Positions 49,065 through 54,370 of a stretch of DNA of 64,000 nt are shown here, in pieces. The stretch is from a virus (taxonomy: Duplodnaviria; Caudoviricetes), in IMG/VR virus record IMGVR_UViG_2767802123_000001, positions 1 through 64,000 of that record; one strand, given 5' to 3'. The translations under genes and the position numbers were made by a program. Under the pieces are notes generated by a model. The model saw nothing but the letters and a program-made list of their open reading frames with translations, was not told where the DNA came from and searched no databases. Numbering within the stretch: position 1 is the stretch's first letter; every line of letters starts with the position of its first letter.

Positions 49065-49181
49065 GATTCCTCCCGAGGAAGAGACCCGGGCAGGGTAGGG
49101 CAGATCCGCCGATTCACCATCTCAGAGCACGACAAAGCCCCGGGCCGCGAGGGCGCCGGGGCTTCGGTGTTGGACGTCGGG

Positions 49182-50096
49182 TCAGTGCGCCCGAACGACT
49201 TGACCCACAGCCCACGCGAGAGCAGCGCGCAGGGCCTCGGTCTCCTTCAGGCGGGGTCGCAGGCTCGGGTCCGGATCGGTCAGCTCTTCGAACTCGATGG
49301 GGTTCAAGCGCCGCCGGGTACCTTCGTCCAGCTCCCGGTCGTCGTGCGGTCCTGTCACCAGGGCCAGACTGTGTGACGGCTTGAACTCGAAGGGGTTTCG
49401 GTGAAGGTGCCTCGTGACGATCGTGCTCTCAGTGAGCAGGAGCTTCAACTTCCCGGTGTTGATGCGCCCAATCTCTTCAGCCACGACGAAGCGGACGCCG
49501 CGCAGGTCCCCAGCCAGGGGCCAATTGACCGAGTACAGCGCGTGGCTCCCGAGGGCATCGCACAGCGGCCGAAGGAACGTCGACTTCCCGGACGACCCCG
49601 GGCCGTGCAGGACGGCGGCCGAATCGGCAGGTTCTCCGGTTACGGCCCTCGCGACGAAGGACCCGAGCGGGGAGGACGCGCCGGACGGCAGGCTTGCGAG
49701 CACTTGGTCCCAGGCAGGGCTCTGAGCGTCGGGGTTGTAGTCGACGGCTGCCACCTTGGTCAGTCGCAAGGTGGGGTCGTGCGGGTGCAGCGTTCCGGTG
49801 AAGAGGTCCACCACACCGTTCTGCACGTTGAGCAGACCCGGGTGGCTGTCCAGGGTCTGCACGTCAATCTCCAGAACAACCTGGAGCTGACGGAGGATCG
49901 TACGGACGTGCCTGTCAGAGAGTCGGCGGTGCCCGTGCGCTTCCCGCCACTGGTTCACCCTGTCGGCCGCCTCGTCCGCGCCGAACTGCGTCACCCAGAC
50001 CTTGCCGTCCCAGTACAGCCATCCGAGGCCCGGGTTCCAGGCGAGTTCGCTTTCAAGGTCGTCCGCCATCTCACGGAGGTTGGGGTCAAGGTCCAT
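49182..50096 (-). CDS. P4/D5-family primase-helicase derivative (shortened)
   Basis: WLYWDGKVW, LNVQNGVVDL.TG.L.PHDP, GPGSSGKST; no primase domain. Confidence 0.8.
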   Translation of the reverse strand: MDLDPNLREMADDLESELAWNPGLGWLYWDGKVWVTQFGADEAADRVNQWREAHGHRRLSDRHVRTILRQLQVVLEIDVQTLDSHPGLLNVQNGVVDLFTGTLHPHDPTLRLTKVAAVDYNPDAQSPAWDQVLASLPSGASSPLGSFVARAVTGEPADSAAVLHGPGSSGKSTFLRPLCDALGSHALYSVNWPLAGDLRGVRFVVAEEIGRINTGKLKLLLTESTIVTRHLHRNPFEFKPSHSLALVTGPHDDRELDEGTRRRLNPIEFEELTDPDPSLRPRLKETEALRAALAWAVGQVVRAH

Positions 50097-50124
50097 GGTC
50101 TGCTCCTCTGTTCCGTGGTCGGGA

Positions 50125-50164
50125 TGAATTTACTAAACCATGCTTCCGTCAGCCGGACAACCCC
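50125..50164 (-). promoter_or_regulatory. Repeated promoter/operator, copy 15
   Basis: Minus strand GGGGTTG-N17-TGGTTTAGTAAATTCA. Confidence 0.75.
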
Positions 50165-50175
50165 GCGTCACCCGA

Positions 50176-50457
50176 TCAGGGCTGAACCCGCTCCAGGGCG
50201 CGGTCCAGCTTGGCCTCGATGCGCTCCAGGTCCCGGGCGTCGGCCTTGAACATGACGTGCTTGGCGCCGAGCAGAAGCACAGCCTGGAACACGAGTTGCA
50301 GCCACTCGGACTGCCAATTCTCGAACGTCGCCGCCCAGAACTCCGACCAGCCCTCTTGGTCGATCTTGGGCTGCATGGCGATGAGCTGTCCGGCCCACGA
50401 GCCTAGGAACAGCAGGGCGAGGATGTAGACCGCGCCCCAGCGGCGGAAGTGACGCAC
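50176..50457 (-). CDS. Membrane protein (DUF6766-like)
   Basis: TFENWQSEWLQL motif; GGGAGG RBS. Confidence 0.7.
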   Translation of the reverse strand: MRHFRRWGAVYILALLFLGSWAGQLIAMQPKIDQEGWSEFWAATFENWQSEWLQLVFQAVLLLGAKHVMFKADARDLERIEAKLDRALERVQP

Positions 50458-50568
50458 CGACCCTCCCGAGGTAGACCCGGGCAGGGTAAGGCAGGTCAGT
50501 CGATTCGCCGACTCGCCGTCAGGCACGGCGAAGCCCCGGACCGCGAGGGCGCCGGGGCTTCAGGTGGA

Positions 50569-51048
50569 TCAGTGGCTGCGCTCGGCGGTCCACTGCTCGC
50601 GACGGCGGCGCAACTCGTCCTTGGCCGACTCCAGCCATGCGGCCTCGGCCTCGGCGCTGCCCAGGTCGGTGGTCAGCATGACCCGGCTGAAGACCCGGGT
50701 GTCCTCGAACGTCGGCGGGACGCGGCCGGCCAGGGCCTCGCGGGCGGCCTGCGCCTTGGCCGGGTCCGGCTCGGCCGGTCGCAGCTCGGGGCTGTTGCGG
50801 CTGGTAACGTCGCCCGGCTCCAGCAGCGGGACCGAGCCGTCGGTGGCCTTGTCGTACCAGTGGCTGGACGGTTCGCCGGTGACGTCGTCGTCTGCGATGA
50901 GCAGGGGCACGGCGTCCAGGCTCACCGGGTCCACGTAATAGGCGACCAGCGTGAAGTGGTCGTTCTCATCGACGAAGCGTGTACCGAGCGGCTGCCGGTC
51001 AGCGAACGGATACGGGCCGTCCTCGGTGATGGGCCTGGGCGCGGTCAT
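50569..51048 (-). CDS. Hypothetical protein
   Basis: GACCACGGAACGAGGAGAG box. Confidence 0.7.
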   Translation of the reverse strand: MTAPRPITEDGPYPFADRQPLGTRFVDENDHFTLVAYYVDPVSLDAVPLLIADDDVTGEPSSHWYDKATDGSVPLLEPGDVTSRNSPELRPAEPDPAKAQAAREALAGRVPPTFEDTRVFSRVMLTTDLGSAEAEAAWLESAKDELRRRREQWTAERSH

Positions 51049-51075
51049 CTGACTCTCCTCGTTCCGTGGTCACTA

Positions 51076-51115
51076 TGAATTAACTAAACCATAGCCCGTG
51101 TGCCCGCACAACCCC
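51076..51115 (-). promoter_or_regulatory. Repeated promoter/operator, copy 16
   Basis: Minus strand GGGGTTG-N17-TGGTTTAGTTAATTCA. Confidence 0.8.
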
Positions 51116-51118
51116 GCG

Positions 51119-53152
51119 TCACCCGATCGTGCGGGCCGCCGTGGCGAGACCCTTGGACGACGTCGTGCCGGTCATCGTCGGCTTCACGATCCGCTGGTGC
51201 CAGGCCGGCCACACCATCGCGTCCAGCCGGTCCGGTGACCAGTCCAGCTCGTCGTACCAGGTGCACATCTGGTCCTCCAGCTCCGGGAATTCACCCACCA
51301 TGTGCCACCGGCCCTGCTCGGACAGGGCCGATACCGGCTCCGCGCGCACCTTCTTCCCCCGCGTCGCGCGCACGGTCTTGATGGGGATGCGTACGCCCAT
51401 CGCGTCGGCGGCGGCCCGAATCGTGTTGACGGCCATGTCCCCGCCGAAGTTGACCTCTACGCAGATGTCGTCCGCGTCGTAGTCGACGGCTGCCTGAACT
51501 GCGCGCCGGCCCCACCCGTCCGGGGACAGGTGGCACGAGCGGTCGGCGAGGACATGGCCGTGGGCGAGCTGCGCCGGGCGGCCGTCGGACCGGACATGCT
51601 CCCGCATCGCCTTGCCCACGACGACAATGCCTTGTTCGCCCCGGCCGCCCGAGGGGTCCACGCCGACGGAAATCCGTGCAAGGTCTGGAAGATCGGCTGG
51701 GCGCAGCCGGTGGGCGTCGATCACCGCGCGGGTCCACAGCGCGTTCTCGTCCTGGTCGATGATCTCGGCGTGCAGCTCCTGGCGGCCGATCTGCGTGCTG
51801 CCGTAGGCGTCCTCCAGCGCGGCCTTGATGTCCTCGGGCAGGTGCGGGTTGTCGTACATCGACGCCCGGGTGCGCACCACGTTCTCGACCCCGCCGGACG
51901 CGAGTTTCTTGATCAGCGCCCGGGGCTTCGGCGTGGTGGAAGCCACCCAGTGCGGCCGGGGGCCGGTGCGCAGACCGAAACGCATCTGGTCCCACGTGTC
52001 GTCCAGGTACCGCCAGGCCGCCAACTCCTCCAGCCACGAGAGGCAGTTGGAGACGAGCAGGTCACCCGCGAAGAACTCGTGATCGTGCTCAACCGTCAGG
52101 TCGTACACGCGCGCGGCGCGACTGATACGCGAGGACCGAAGTGCACCGGCGCGAACAGGCGCGGGTCGGCTTACGGACTTGGCACTCAAACGTGTCGCCG
52201 CACACGCAGCACACCCGTTCCTCCCGTGCTCGTGACGCATCCGCACGGCACTTCGGAGAGCAGTACCGCGCTGCGACCGTGCCCCGGGACTGGAAGGAGG
52301 CCCCGCAGCGCTCACACTCGAAACTTCGGTAGACCGCGCGGGCCCACTTTGTCTGGCCGCCCCGGCTGCGCTCCTCGGGGGTGAGATTACCCCCTCGCTT
52401 GCTCCCGTCTTGTTCCATGTGAGAACACTATCAAGTGGCCCGACGAGTAAAGCGGGCTTCCAGCCGTCGGCCGTCGCTACCTTGTGATCCGGGGTGAGCC
52501 ACGTGAACCCCGCGCCGTGGTCGTAGCGCACCACGTCCTTCACACCGTTGTCCCAGACCTCCAGTACGGTGCGCAGTCCGTTGCGGGTCCACACGCGGTC
52601 CCCGGGCCGGACGGTCTCGATGTGCCGCTCCCCGTGCTCGGTGCGCACCAGCGTGCCCTCAGCCACGCACCTGTTACCGCCGGACCGCAGGCGCTCGACG
52701 CTGCCAGGGCTGTCGGCGCCGAACAGCTTCGCCTCCGAGCCGTTGGGCCAGCGGATGACCGTGCCGCCCTGGACGGTCATCATCCGCGCCTCGGGGCTGT
52801 GCACCCGGAGCCCGGAGGGACCGGCGTAGCAGGACGTCGCCGCGTCGCCGAGGGTCGGCGCGATGATGCCTATCCAGTGCGGGGTGGGGCCGGGCAGACA
52901 CGGCGGGCCCATGACGTGCTCGTGGACGTACCGTGCGCAGGCGTCCGTCTTGCCGGCGCCACGGCCGGCGAGGAGCAACCAGCCGTACCAGTCGCCCTCA
53001 GGCGGGACCTGGTGGGGCAGTGGAGTCCAGCGCGGTTCGGACAGCGTGCGCGCGTGCATCAGCAGACGTTCGGCCGCCGCGCGGCTCAGCATCCGGTCCA
53101 CCATGGAGGTCATTGTCGGTGGAGCTGCGGCCGTTGCTTTCCGGAGCGCCAC
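51119..53152 (-). CDS. terL: Terminase large subunit containing an intein
   Basis: AGRGAGKT Walker A, WLEE Walker B, VGVDP, SPDRLDA nuclease motifs. Confidence 0.92.
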   Translation of the reverse strand: MALRKATAAAPPTMTSMVDRMLSRAAAERLLMHARTLSEPRWTPLPHQVPPEGDWYGWLLLAGRGAGKTDACARYVHEHVMGPPCLPGPTPHWIGIIAPTLGDAATSCYAGPSGLRVHSPEARMMTVQGGTVIRWPNGSEAKLFGADSPGSVERLRSGGNRCVAEGTLVRTEHGERHIETVRPGDRVWTRNGLRTVLEVWDNGVKDVVRYDHGAGFTWLTPDHKVATADGWKPALLVGPLDSVLTWNKTGASEGVISPPRSAAGAARQSGPARSTEVSSVSAAGPPSSPGARSQRGTALRSAVRMRHEHGRNGCAACAATRLSAKSVSRPAPVRAGALRSSRISRAARVYDLTVEHDHEFFAGDLLVSNCLSWLEELAAWRYLDDTWDQMRFGLRTGPRPHWVASTTPKPRALIKKLASGGVENVVRTRASMYDNPHLPEDIKAALEDAYGSTQIGRQELHAEIIDQDENALWTRAVIDAHRLRPADLPDLARISVGVDPSGGRGEQGIVVVGKAMREHVRSDGRPAQLAHGHVLADRSCHLSPDGWGRRAVQAAVDYDADDICVEVNFGGDMAVNTIRAAADAMGVRIPIKTVRATRGKKVRAEPVSALSEQGRWHMVGEFPELEDQMCTWYDELDWSPDRLDAMVWPAWHQRIVKPTMTGTTSSKGLATAARTIG
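52046..52669 (-). mobile_element. Intein (208 aa) in TerL
   Basis: Starts CVAEGTLV; TPDHKV block B; VYDLTVEHDHEFFAGDLLVSN/C end. Confidence 0.9.
52089..52418 (-). CDS. Overprinted Zn-finger protein inside the intein (alternate frame)
   Basis: Two CxxC-N-CSxxC units; TGaTAGTGT extended -10 located 6 nt before ATG. Confidence 0.7.
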   Translation of the reverse strand: MEQDGSKRGGNLTPEERSRGGQTKWARAVYRSFECERCGASFQSRGTVAARYCSPKCRADASRAREERVCCVCGDTFECQVRKPTRACSRRCTSVLAYQSRRARVRPDG

Positions 53153-53263
53153 GGAGCCCGTGCCAACTGGTGATCGGCACGGGCTCCGTGGTTGCGGACT
53201 ACGGGGTAAGGCGGTCCCCGCTCCGGTCCTTGGCGCCGGCCCGCGCGGCCGTCTGCGGGGCGC

Positions 53264-54370
<1,107 letters not shown>

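What the first reader, a model, noticed from the sequence alone, without database searches (positions are those of the whole stretch)
52046..52669. Terminase intein hides an overprinted Zn-finger gene with its own promoter
Seen: the intein's central region is low-complexity Ser/Ala/Arg sequence in the TerL frame. Another frame on the same strand (52418-52089) encodes 109 aa with two ordered CxxC...CSxxC units. An extended -10-like TGaTAGTGT lies 6 nt before its ATG, which fits a leaderless transcript. Established: inteins normally carry homing endonucleases in-frame, and such Cys units often accompany HNH nucleases. Inference: out-of-frame, independently expressed cargo, either a homing-nuclease remnant or a DNA-binding factor. 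No HNH motif is visible. The intein ends SN rather than HN.
Basis: partly seen in the sequence, partly recalled or inferred. Interest (0 to 1): 0.8.

Follow-up and report, generated by a model that had tools for sequence, protein, structure and literature searches.

The report
Nuclease-less remnant of intein-nested HNH gene
Inside the self-splicing insert (intein) of a phage DNA-packaging gene, a second reading frame holds the zinc-finger half of a homing-nuclease gene; the cutting domain is deleted, yet the remnant is still kept by selection, a new twist on a layout first described in 2025.

Summary
The terL gene (51119-53152, minus strand) carries a 208-aa class 1 intein (52669-52046). Its centre is also read in frame +2 as a 109-aa ORF (52418-52089) with two CxxC...CxxxC units.

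The ORF is not a chance product. It is 58-73% identical to the C-terminal half of 172-182-aa HNH_3 endonucleases. In nine distinct relatives these genes are nested at the same place in the same terL intein, in the same frame offset, with the terL frame open through them.

The window and one diverged relative (L023) share a clean 207-nt deletion of codons 2-70, the HNH core. The ATG and the sequence upstream of it are retained.

The remnant has evolved under purifying selection since the two copies split. dN/dS is 0.25 in its own frame and 1.47 in the terL frame. It shows 26 amino-acid differences, against 43 +/- 3 expected if neutral.

An AT-rich patch carrying TGATAGTGT ends 6 nt before the ATG. 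It is tied to presence of the nested gene, but expression has not been shown.

Out-of-frame endonuclease genes in inteins were reported in 2025 (Gosselin et al., bioRxiv). This scan has also noted the layout 63 times, in at least 60 genomes. The new element here is a nuclease-free derivative that is still conserved.

The parts
51119..53152 (-). terL (large terminase) ORF, 677 aa from the first GTG; the exteins are 52670-53152 and 51119-52045
   Evidence: Pfam Terminase_6N and Terminase_6C. An intein-less allele, L038, aligns to 53149-52667 and 52045-51117 with the two blocks adjacent.
52046..52669 (-). Class 1 intein, 208 aa: C1, TPDH (block B), VYDLTVEHDHEFF...LLVSN, followed by Cys +1
   Evidence: Pfam Hint_2 at 34.1 bits against a cut-off of 28.4. 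It is precisely absent from L038. The AF2 model matches the Mtu RecA mini-intein 3ifj with E 6.6e-8, TM 0.83 and rmsd 2.2.
52409..52669 (-). N-terminal Hint part of the intein (residues 1-87)
   Evidence: pLDDT 87-91, all-beta. dN/dS is 0.36 in the terL frame between the window and L023.
52169..52408 (-). terL-frame read-through of the nested gene (intein residues 88-167): a low-complexity linker predicted to be disordered
   Evidence: pLDDT 27-45. terL-frame dN/dS is 1.47. terL-frame GC3 is about 0.6.
52046..52168 (-). C-terminal Hint part of the intein (residues 168-208); 52089-52168 is also the 3' end of the nested ORF, so both frames encode structured protein there
   Evidence: pLDDT 77-87. 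This part is kept in the mini-intein P0017. Third-position entropy in the nested frame is low there, 0.23-0.37.
52089..52418 (-). Nested ORF, 109 aa plus TGA, frame +2 relative to terL: the remnant of an HNH_3 + double zinc-finger homing endonuclease gene with the nuclease core deleted
   Evidence: 58-73% identity to 172-182-aa HNH_3 proteins. Matches phrog_1271 at 3.4e-8 and phrog_15471 at 8.3e-6. dN/dS 0.25. AF2 pLDDT 78.8.
52415..52416 (-). Junction of the 207-nt deletion (codons 2-70 of the full-length gene), directly after the retained ATG
   Evidence: DNA alignment with L020, L022, L025 and L026; the same junction is seen in L023.
52248..52316 (-). Zinc-finger unit 1 (C35, C38 ... C53, C57)
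   Evidence: Invariant Cys. Predicted beta-hairpin plus helix.
52143..52211 (-). Zinc-finger unit 2 (C70, C73 ... C88, C92)
   Evidence: Invariant Cys. pLDDT 86-93. Weak local likeness to YacG and FCS zinc fingers.
52425..52433 (-). TGATAGTGT, an extended -10-like element ending 6 nt before the ATG
   Evidence: One of only two TGNTANNNT in the window. NANNNT lies at -12..-7 in all 11 homologues and TANNNT in 6 of them. There is no full sigma-70 promoter by scan.
52418..52435 (-). Six terL codons (CTT GAT AGT GTT CTC ACA) with A/T at the synonymous position, just before and into the nested start
   Evidence: GC3 is 0.17 here against 0.88 in the rest of the N-intein; pooled over 11 homologues it is 0.36 against 0.80. 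The mini-intein without a nested gene encodes the same residues with GC3 0.83.

Best explanation
Shown:
- terL carries a class 1 intein.
- In relatives, the position where inteins normally hold their endonuclease domain is occupied by a separate 172-182-aa gene written in frame +2.
- That gene has an N-terminal HNH_3 nuclease and two C-terminal zinc-finger units.
- terL reads through it as a disordered linker that is spliced out with the intein.
- In the window, a 207-nt deletion removed codons 2-70 (the nuclease). It kept the ATG, the upstream AT-rich -10-like patch and both reading frames.
- Since the split from the only other known truncated copy, the remnant has been under purifying selection in its own frame, not in the terL frame.

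Inferred:
- The remnant is still made, most likely from a leaderless transcript that starts at the ATG, or by internal initiation without a Shine-Dalgarno site.
- It acts as a small, basic, nuclease-free zinc-finger protein that binds nucleic acid, probably the terL homing site recognised by its full-length ancestors.
- What that binding achieves is not known. Candidates are autoregulation, help or hindrance to homing by related elements, or a role taken over by the phage.
For: Identity of the ORF:
- Relatives were found, and the PHROG matches.
- The full-length family is large: 3281 representatives at E<=1e-3.
- In 9 distinct loci from Logan, IMG/VR and JGI the gene is nested out of frame at the same offset, with terL open through it.

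Deletion:
- The same clean 207-nt gap follows the ATG in the window and in L023.
- The first 21 retained codons are still 28-32/63 nt identical to full-length genes, against 20.3 +/- 3.6 when shuffled.

Selection, window against L023:
- In the nested frame, dN is 0.162, dS 0.653 and omega 0.25 (Fisher p 3.8e-7).
- In the terL frame, omega is 1.47.
- The dS value equals that of the exteins (0.47-0.67).
- The three sub-regions give omega 0.23, 0.20 and 0.06.
- A neutral simulation that keeps terL open expects 43.0 +/- 3.1 amino-acid changes. Only 26 are observed, and 0 of 3000 simulations reach that low.
- 86% of neutral simulations acquire a stop in the nested frame.
- Full-length pairs give omega 0.33 in the nested frame against 1.19 in the terL frame.

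Single origin:
- The window and L023 form a clade with 100/99 support on the zinc-finger part.

Expression signal:
- See, with the mini-intein control.

Structure:
- The remnant folds as a helix plus two beta-hairpin/helix units at pLDDT 78.8.
- The intein model has a Hint fold with residues 88-167 disordered.

Not needed for splicing:
- The mini-intein P0017 lacks the whole cassette.
Against: - There is no transcript, 5'-end or peptide evidence.
- There is no Shine-Dalgarno sequence, no convincing -35 and no full sigma-70 promoter.
- Only two truncated lineages are known, so the selection estimate rests on one pairwise comparison.
- The nuclease is gone, and no HNH_3 or HNH gene lies on the same contig to act with it.
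- The fold searches give only weak, local zinc-finger matches, so DNA binding is inferred from domain position in the full-length enzyme and from charge, not from a solved relative.
- Keeping the terL frame open is not itself improbable: 14-76% under synonymous recoding.
Confidence: 0.6

Rival explanations
1. The ORF is a dead relic. On this view it is a decaying homing-endonuclease gene on its way to a mini-intein. It is no longer expressed, and its frame and sequence survive by lag or by constraints other than its own protein.
For: - The catalytic core is deleted.
- The homing-cycle model expects such decay, and a mini-intein at the same site exists.
- No expression data are available.
- The last roughly 27 codons overlap the structured C-terminal intein part and would be conserved anyway.
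Against: - Omega is 0.25 at dS 0.65, which is as strong as or stronger than in full-length genes (0.33-0.46). This also holds in the parts that overlap only the disordered linker, with omega 0.20-0.23.
- Substitutions pile up at the nested frame's third position (15, 18 and 35 at positions 1, 2 and 3), which is terL position 2.
- 0 of 3000 neutral simulations reach the observed conservation, and 86% gain a stop.
- All eight Cys are kept.
Confidence: 0.33
2. The zinc-finger segment really belongs in the terL/intein frame. On this view it appears out of frame through sequencing errors, a pair of compensating frameshifts, or programmed ribosomal frameshifting.
For: - The segment sits exactly where in-frame endonuclease domains sit in ordinary inteins.
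- In some relatives the alternative frame is open far upstream of the start.
Against: - Eleven distinct sequences from independent assemblies all have the same offset.
- In the window and in L023, two stops (TGA TAG) lie 9 nt before the ATG.
- The start codon is conserved as ATG or GTG in all sequences.
- The full-length proteins are called as free-standing genes with HNH_3 at their very N terminus.
Confidence: 0.02
3. The ORF is a chance open frame in GC-rich DNA with fortuitous Cys pairs.
For: Long alternative-frame ORFs are common at 70% G+C.
Against: - Homologues at E 1e-25 to 1e-37 and PHROG hits.
- The third-position GC signal switches to this frame.
- Purifying selection acts on this frame.
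Confidence: 0.01

Closest known systems
[quoted passage not shown]
   Same: - A contiguous, in-frame splicing domain.
- A separate nuclease ORF on the same strand, in frame 3, at the endonuclease insertion position.
- The host frame stays open and is unstructured there.
- The host gene is terL of phages of actinobacteria.
- Intein-less close alleles exist.
   Different: - The nuclease family here is HNH_3 (PF13392) with two C-terminal zinc-finger units, not the endonuclease VII-like type. No close relative was found in the 50,697 phage records.
- The window's copy has lost the nuclease, yet it is conserved. The preprint mentions decay only as an expectation.
ShiLan-type 'hidden' out-of-frame HNH insertions in phage methylase genes (Arsenault et al. 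2025, PMC11855218)
   Same: - An out-of-frame HNH gene inside a host ORF that stays open.
- No Shine-Dalgarno site.
- Leaderless initiation was proposed by the authors.
   Different: There, no splicing domain is present and the insert stays in the host protein. Here the read-through is removed by a bona fide intein.
Free-standing phage HNH endonucleases with zinc-ribbon domains, and the stand-alone zinc-ribbon proteins (ZRP) encoded beside some of them (Xu & Gupta 2013, PMC3592412)
   Same: - A small HNH combined with Cys4 zinc modules.
- A location at the terminase genes.
- Zinc-module-only proteins exist in nature.
- Distant free-standing homologues (25-34% identity) are annotated as HNH endonucleases in several phages.
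   Different: - Those enzymes belong to the PF01844-type HNH group and are separate genes.
- A ZRP has an adjacent nuclease partner. The window's element has no HNH gene on its contig.
Homing-endonuclease derivatives that keep binding but not cleavage. From my own knowledge, not checked here: I-TevI acting as an autorepressor through its DNA-binding domain, LAGLIDADG maturases, and HNH-AP2 as the source of AP2 DNA-binding domains.
   Same: The nucleic-acid-binding part of a homing enzyme retains or gains a function without cleavage.
   Different: None of these is a truncated gene overprinted inside an intein. Any such function here is only inferred from selection.

Membership tests
Class 1 intein (Hint fold) | N-terminal Cys/Ser, block B TxxH, C-terminal Asn followed by Cys/Ser/Thr | tested here: met
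   C1, T59-P-D-H62, N208 and C+1 are invariant in 9 aligned inteins.
Class 1 intein (Hint fold) | Penultimate His (block G HN) | tested here: not met
   The residue is Ser207, invariant in all relatives. From general knowledge this residue is common but not obligatory in inteins, so this does not exclude membership.
Class 1 intein (Hint fold) | Hint fold and family profile | tested here: met
   Hint_2 at 34.1 bits against a cut-off of 28.4. The AF2 model matches Mtu RecA, DnaB, DnaE and gp41-1 inteins, with best E 6.6e-8 and TM 0.83.
Class 1 intein (Hint fold) | Precise in-frame insertion that is absent from close alleles | tested here: met
   L038 (C-extein 94% aa identical) lacks exactly 52046-52669.
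Class 1 intein (Hint fold) | Protein splicing activity | not testable with these tools
   Inferred from the essential role of terL and from purifying selection on the splicing parts, omega 0.36.
HNH_3 homing endonuclease (PF13392) | HNH_3 beta-beta-alpha-metal core (HH..N..N..H) | tested here: not met
   The window ORF has no HNH_3 hit, because the core is deleted. Full-length relatives hit at E 1e-13 to 1e-14.
HNH_3 homing endonuclease (PF13392) | Homology to the non-catalytic part of family members | tested here: met
   58-73% identity over 85-99% of the ORF. Also matches phrog_15471 and phrog_1271.
Non-canonical intein with an out-of-frame homing endonuclease gene (Gosselin et al. 2025) | A separate ORF in another frame of the same strand, between the splicing blocks, with the host frame open | tested here: met
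   Offset +2 in all 11 distinct sequences. The ORF starts after block B and stops inside block F.
Non-canonical intein with an out-of-frame homing endonuclease gene (Gosselin et al. 2025) | The ORF encodes a complete endonuclease | tested here: not met
   Met in 9 relatives but not in the window or L023, where only the zinc-finger half remains.
Stand-alone zinc-ribbon protein partnered with an HNH endonuclease (Xu & Gupta group 4) | An adjacent HNH endonuclease gene | tested here: not met
   No PF13392 or PF01844 match on contig C29.
Zinc-binding DNA-binding domain | Zinc and DNA binding | not testable with these tools
   Eight invariant Cys and a confident beta-beta-alpha x2 model. Structural matches are only weak: YacG at Z 4.4 and the FCS finger at Z 3.1.

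The most novel reading that the evidence does not exclude
The nuclease-free zinc-finger protein may be a working derivative of a homing endonuclease, expressed from its own leaderless start inside the intein. It would bind the terL homing site and so influence spread of the cassette or of related full-length elements. It could do this by mobilising the cassette in trans or by blocking homing, or it may have been taken over by the phage as a regulator. The differing histories of the cassette and the exteins would then reflect continued movement of an endonuclease-less intein.
Probability: 0.25. Interest if true: 0.65.

Novelty: new variant of a known kind. Interest (0 to 1): 0.45.

Why it matters
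The standard homing cycle has an endonuclease decay neutrally once its element is fixed. Here an intermediate has lost the nuclease but keeps its binding half under selection as strong as in intact copies, while a second frame of the same DNA must stay open for an essential gene. If the protein is made, three things would follow:
- It would be a natural case of a homing-enzyme fragment that gained or kept a role of its own.
- It would give a compact system for studying internal, Shine-Dalgarno-less gene starts inside a coding region in actinobacterial phages.
- It would show that inteins classed as 'decaying' or 'mini' can hide live genes that annotation pipelines miss.

Tried and rejected
- A DNA search of 60 relatives' genomes with the 901-nt region gave only short spurious hits.
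- The genome-contig scan with the HNH alignment found nothing.
- No paralogue of the ORF was found in the window's own genome.
- The sigma-70 promoter and terminator scan found nothing in 51900-53400.
- The sequence search of solved structures gave only chance-level C2H2 matches.
- Foldseek and VIA-align on the remnant model gave no significant whole-model match. The atlas look-alikes are small YacG, FCS or MYND-type finger proteins and are leads only.
- I considered that the first 21 codons after the ATG were foreign replacement sequence. I rejected this because positional identity to full-length genes is about 3 sd above shuffled.
- I considered using openness of the terL frame as evidence of selection. 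I rejected this because synonymous recoding leaves it open in 14-76% of trials.
- I considered that the low synonymous variation in nested codons 131-150 marks a second constraint. It was left open, because two-fold codons under strong GC bias may explain it.

Full report
**What is there**

The window is 69.6% G+C. On the minus strand, 51119-53152 is a 677-aa large terminase with Terminase_6N, Terminase_6C and a Hint_2 match. Residues 162-369 (52669-52046) are an intein. It begins CVAEGT, has TPDH in block B, and ends VYDLTVEHDHEFFAGDLLVSN followed by Cys.

An intein-less allele (L038) has a C-extein 94% identical in protein. It aligns to 53149-52667 and to 52045-51117, with the two blocks adjacent, so the element is a precise insertion.

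The AlphaFold model of the 208 residues has two confident all-beta parts, 1-87 and 168-208, at pLDDT 77-91. Together they match mini-intein structures, best 3ifj with E 6.6e-8, TM 0.83 and rmsd 2.2 A. Residues 88-167 are below pLDDT 50.

**The second frame**

The ORF 52418-52089 lies at offset +2 to terL. Two stops (TGA TAG) sit 9 nt upstream of its ATG, and its TGA lies inside block F.

Across the overlap, third-position G+C of the terL frame falls from about 0.93 to about 0.6. The nested frame rises to 0.7-0.83.

The 109-aa product has two CxxC...CxxxC units. It is 58-73% identical to six database proteins of 172-182 aa that carry Pfam HNH_3 at their N terminus. It also matches PHROG HNH-endonuclease families. 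The full-length family is large, with 3281 representatives at E<=1e-3.

**Where the relatives sit**

Every full-length relative whose DNA I could read is nested in the same terL intein. This covers nine distinct sequences from Logan, IMG/VR and JGI contigs.

All have the same synteny: a LuxR/GerE-like regulator, then an Rpf-NlpC/P60-LysM gene, then terL. All have the same +2 offset, and terL is open through the nested gene.

Gene callers annotated the HNH gene and only the C-terminal part of terL there.

Pairwise dN/dS over the overlap is 0.33 (median) in the nested frame and 1.19 in the terL frame. The nested gene is therefore the selected reading. terL merely has to stay open, which is not hard for this protein sequence at this codon usage: 14-76% of synonymous recodings leave it open, against about 5% for the third frame.

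Distant homologues (25-34% identity) are free-standing 'HNH endonuclease' genes in several phages. Others lie unannotated under terL in Tetrasphaera phage TJE1, Acinetobacter phage Highwayman and a Rhodobacteraceae phage.

**What is special in this window**

The window and L023/L024 (the P0002 locus) lack codons 2-70 of the nested gene, which is the whole HNH_3 core. The gap is a clean 207 nt directly after the retained ATG.

The next 21 codons are strongly diverged but still positionally related to the full-length genes: 28-32 of 63 nt identical, against 20.3 +/- 3.6 when shuffled.

On the zinc-finger part, the two truncated copies form a clade with 100/99 support and a long stem, so the deletion happened once.

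Their exteins are no closer to each other than to alleles that carry the full gene. The AU test rejects a window+L023 clade on the C-extein (p 0.03). It also rejects window+L025+L026 on the zinc-finger part (p 0.003). These groups were named after seeing the identity table, so this is suggestive only.

Most close terL alleles are intein-less, and one relative has a mini-intein at this site. Together this is the sporadic pattern expected of a mobile element at different stages of the homing cycle.

**Is the remnant still under selection?**

The window and L023 differ at 68 of 312 aligned nt.

| Measure | Nested frame | terL frame |
|---|---|---|
| dN | 0.162 | 0.279 |
| dS | 0.653 | 0.190 |
| omega | 0.25 (Fisher p 3.8e-7) | 1.47 |

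- The nested-frame dS matches that of the exteins (0.47-0.67).
- Differences fall 15, 18 and 35 on nested codon positions 1, 2 and 3.
- The three sub-regions give omega 0.23 (N-terminal segment), 0.20 (finger 1) and 0.06 (finger 2).
- I placed 68 substitutions at random, using the observed spectrum and requiring terL to stay open. This gave 43.0 +/- 3.1 amino-acid changes in the nested frame, against 26 observed. None of 3000 runs reached 26, and 86% of runs created a stop.
- All eight Cys are kept.
- The model of the remnant is confident (pLDDT 78.8): a helix followed by two beta-hairpin-plus-helix units.

This argues that the truncated protein has been made and useful since the deletion. It rests on one pair of lineages.

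**Expression signal**

- There is no Shine-Dalgarno sequence before the start in any homologue.
- All 11 have NANNNT at -12..-7 from the start codon. Six have TANNNT, and four have the TG extension.
- In the window the element is TGATAGTGT. This is one of only two matches to TGNTANNNT in 128 kb of both strands.
- The six terL codons there use A/T at the synonymous position. GC3 is 0.17 in the window and 0.36 pooled, against 0.80-0.88 elsewhere in the N-intein.
- The mini-intein, which has no nested gene, encodes the same residues (GDSVFTW) with G/C-ending codons, GC3 0.83.

From general knowledge, that spacing is the one described for leaderless transcripts in actinobacteria. Leaderless initiation was also proposed for hidden HNH genes by Arsenault et al..

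The signal is comparative only. The sigma-70 scan finds no full promoter, and I could not obtain read data.

**Comparison with what is known**

[quoted passage not shown] They proposed invasion of inteins by free-standing endonuclease genes. Arsenault et al. 2025 described out-of-frame HNH insertions without splicing domains.

Earlier notes of this scan record the layout 63 times, in at least 60 genomes. The layout is therefore known.

The present family differs in nuclease type (HNH_3 with two zinc fingers). More interestingly, it has a nuclease-less form that is conserved rather than decaying.

Xu and Gupta 2013 describe stand-alone zinc-ribbon proteins beside phage HNH genes. Here no HNH gene is on the contig, so that model is not met.

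**Verdict**

The thing is a new variant of a recently described kind.

Mechanism, with likelihoods:
- The ORF is the remnant of a nested out-of-frame homing endonuclease gene: about 0.95.
- It is still expressed and functional as a nuclease-free zinc-finger binding protein: about 0.6.
- Its biological role is open.

Noticed in passing
P0005, P0290, P0293 (relatives' TerL proteins): These proteins have a second terL intein at a different site (ELEDQ(L/M)|C...HN|CTW). Its centre also reads as Ser/Gly/Thr/Arg/Pro low-complexity sequence. This is probably another endonuclease gene in a second frame.
   Followed up: no
L039 1-500 and P0017 N terminus: The mini-intein allele's called protein begins with what looks like the C-terminal half of another intein (...YDLQVPGVHSYLAEGVWNHN|SGKT, at the Walker A site). 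In a sister contig an HNH_3+HTH gene lies on the opposite strand just upstream. This resembles a split-intein 'fractured gene' arrangement.
   Followed up: no
P0013: This relative's terL also carries a LAGLIDADG-type intein (PF14528) in the P-loop region. terL of this phage group therefore has at least three intein insertion sites.
   Followed up: no
window contig C29 and relatives: Contigs carrying this terL are 95,726, 95,646 and 95,700 bases in three independent samples. This suggests a complete element of about 95.7 kb, a phage or phage-plasmid. A close terL is annotated in Streptomyces massasporeus.
   Followed up: no
window 49176-51117 against L038 4373-5441: The stretch directly downstream of terL differs in content and length between the window (about 1.9 kb) and the intein-less relative (about 1.1 kb, with a D5_N/DUF5906 gene). 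This is in line with cassette turnover next to terL.
   Followed up: partly
L037 (Tetrasphaera phage TJE1 terL, HQ225832.1 14887-15414); also OZ038341.1 and OP947163.1: Distant homologues of the HNH + zinc-finger gene lie inside annotated terL genes of published phage genomes, without an annotation of their own.
   Followed up: partly
window 52143-52230 (nested codons about 63-92; alignment columns 131-170): Synonymous positions of the nested frame vary unusually little across all 11 sequences around SRAREERVCCVCGDTFE and SRRCTSVLAY. The second patch overlaps the structured intein C-terminal part. The first patch is unexplained; codon bias on two-fold codons or a second constraint could account for it.
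   Followed up: partly
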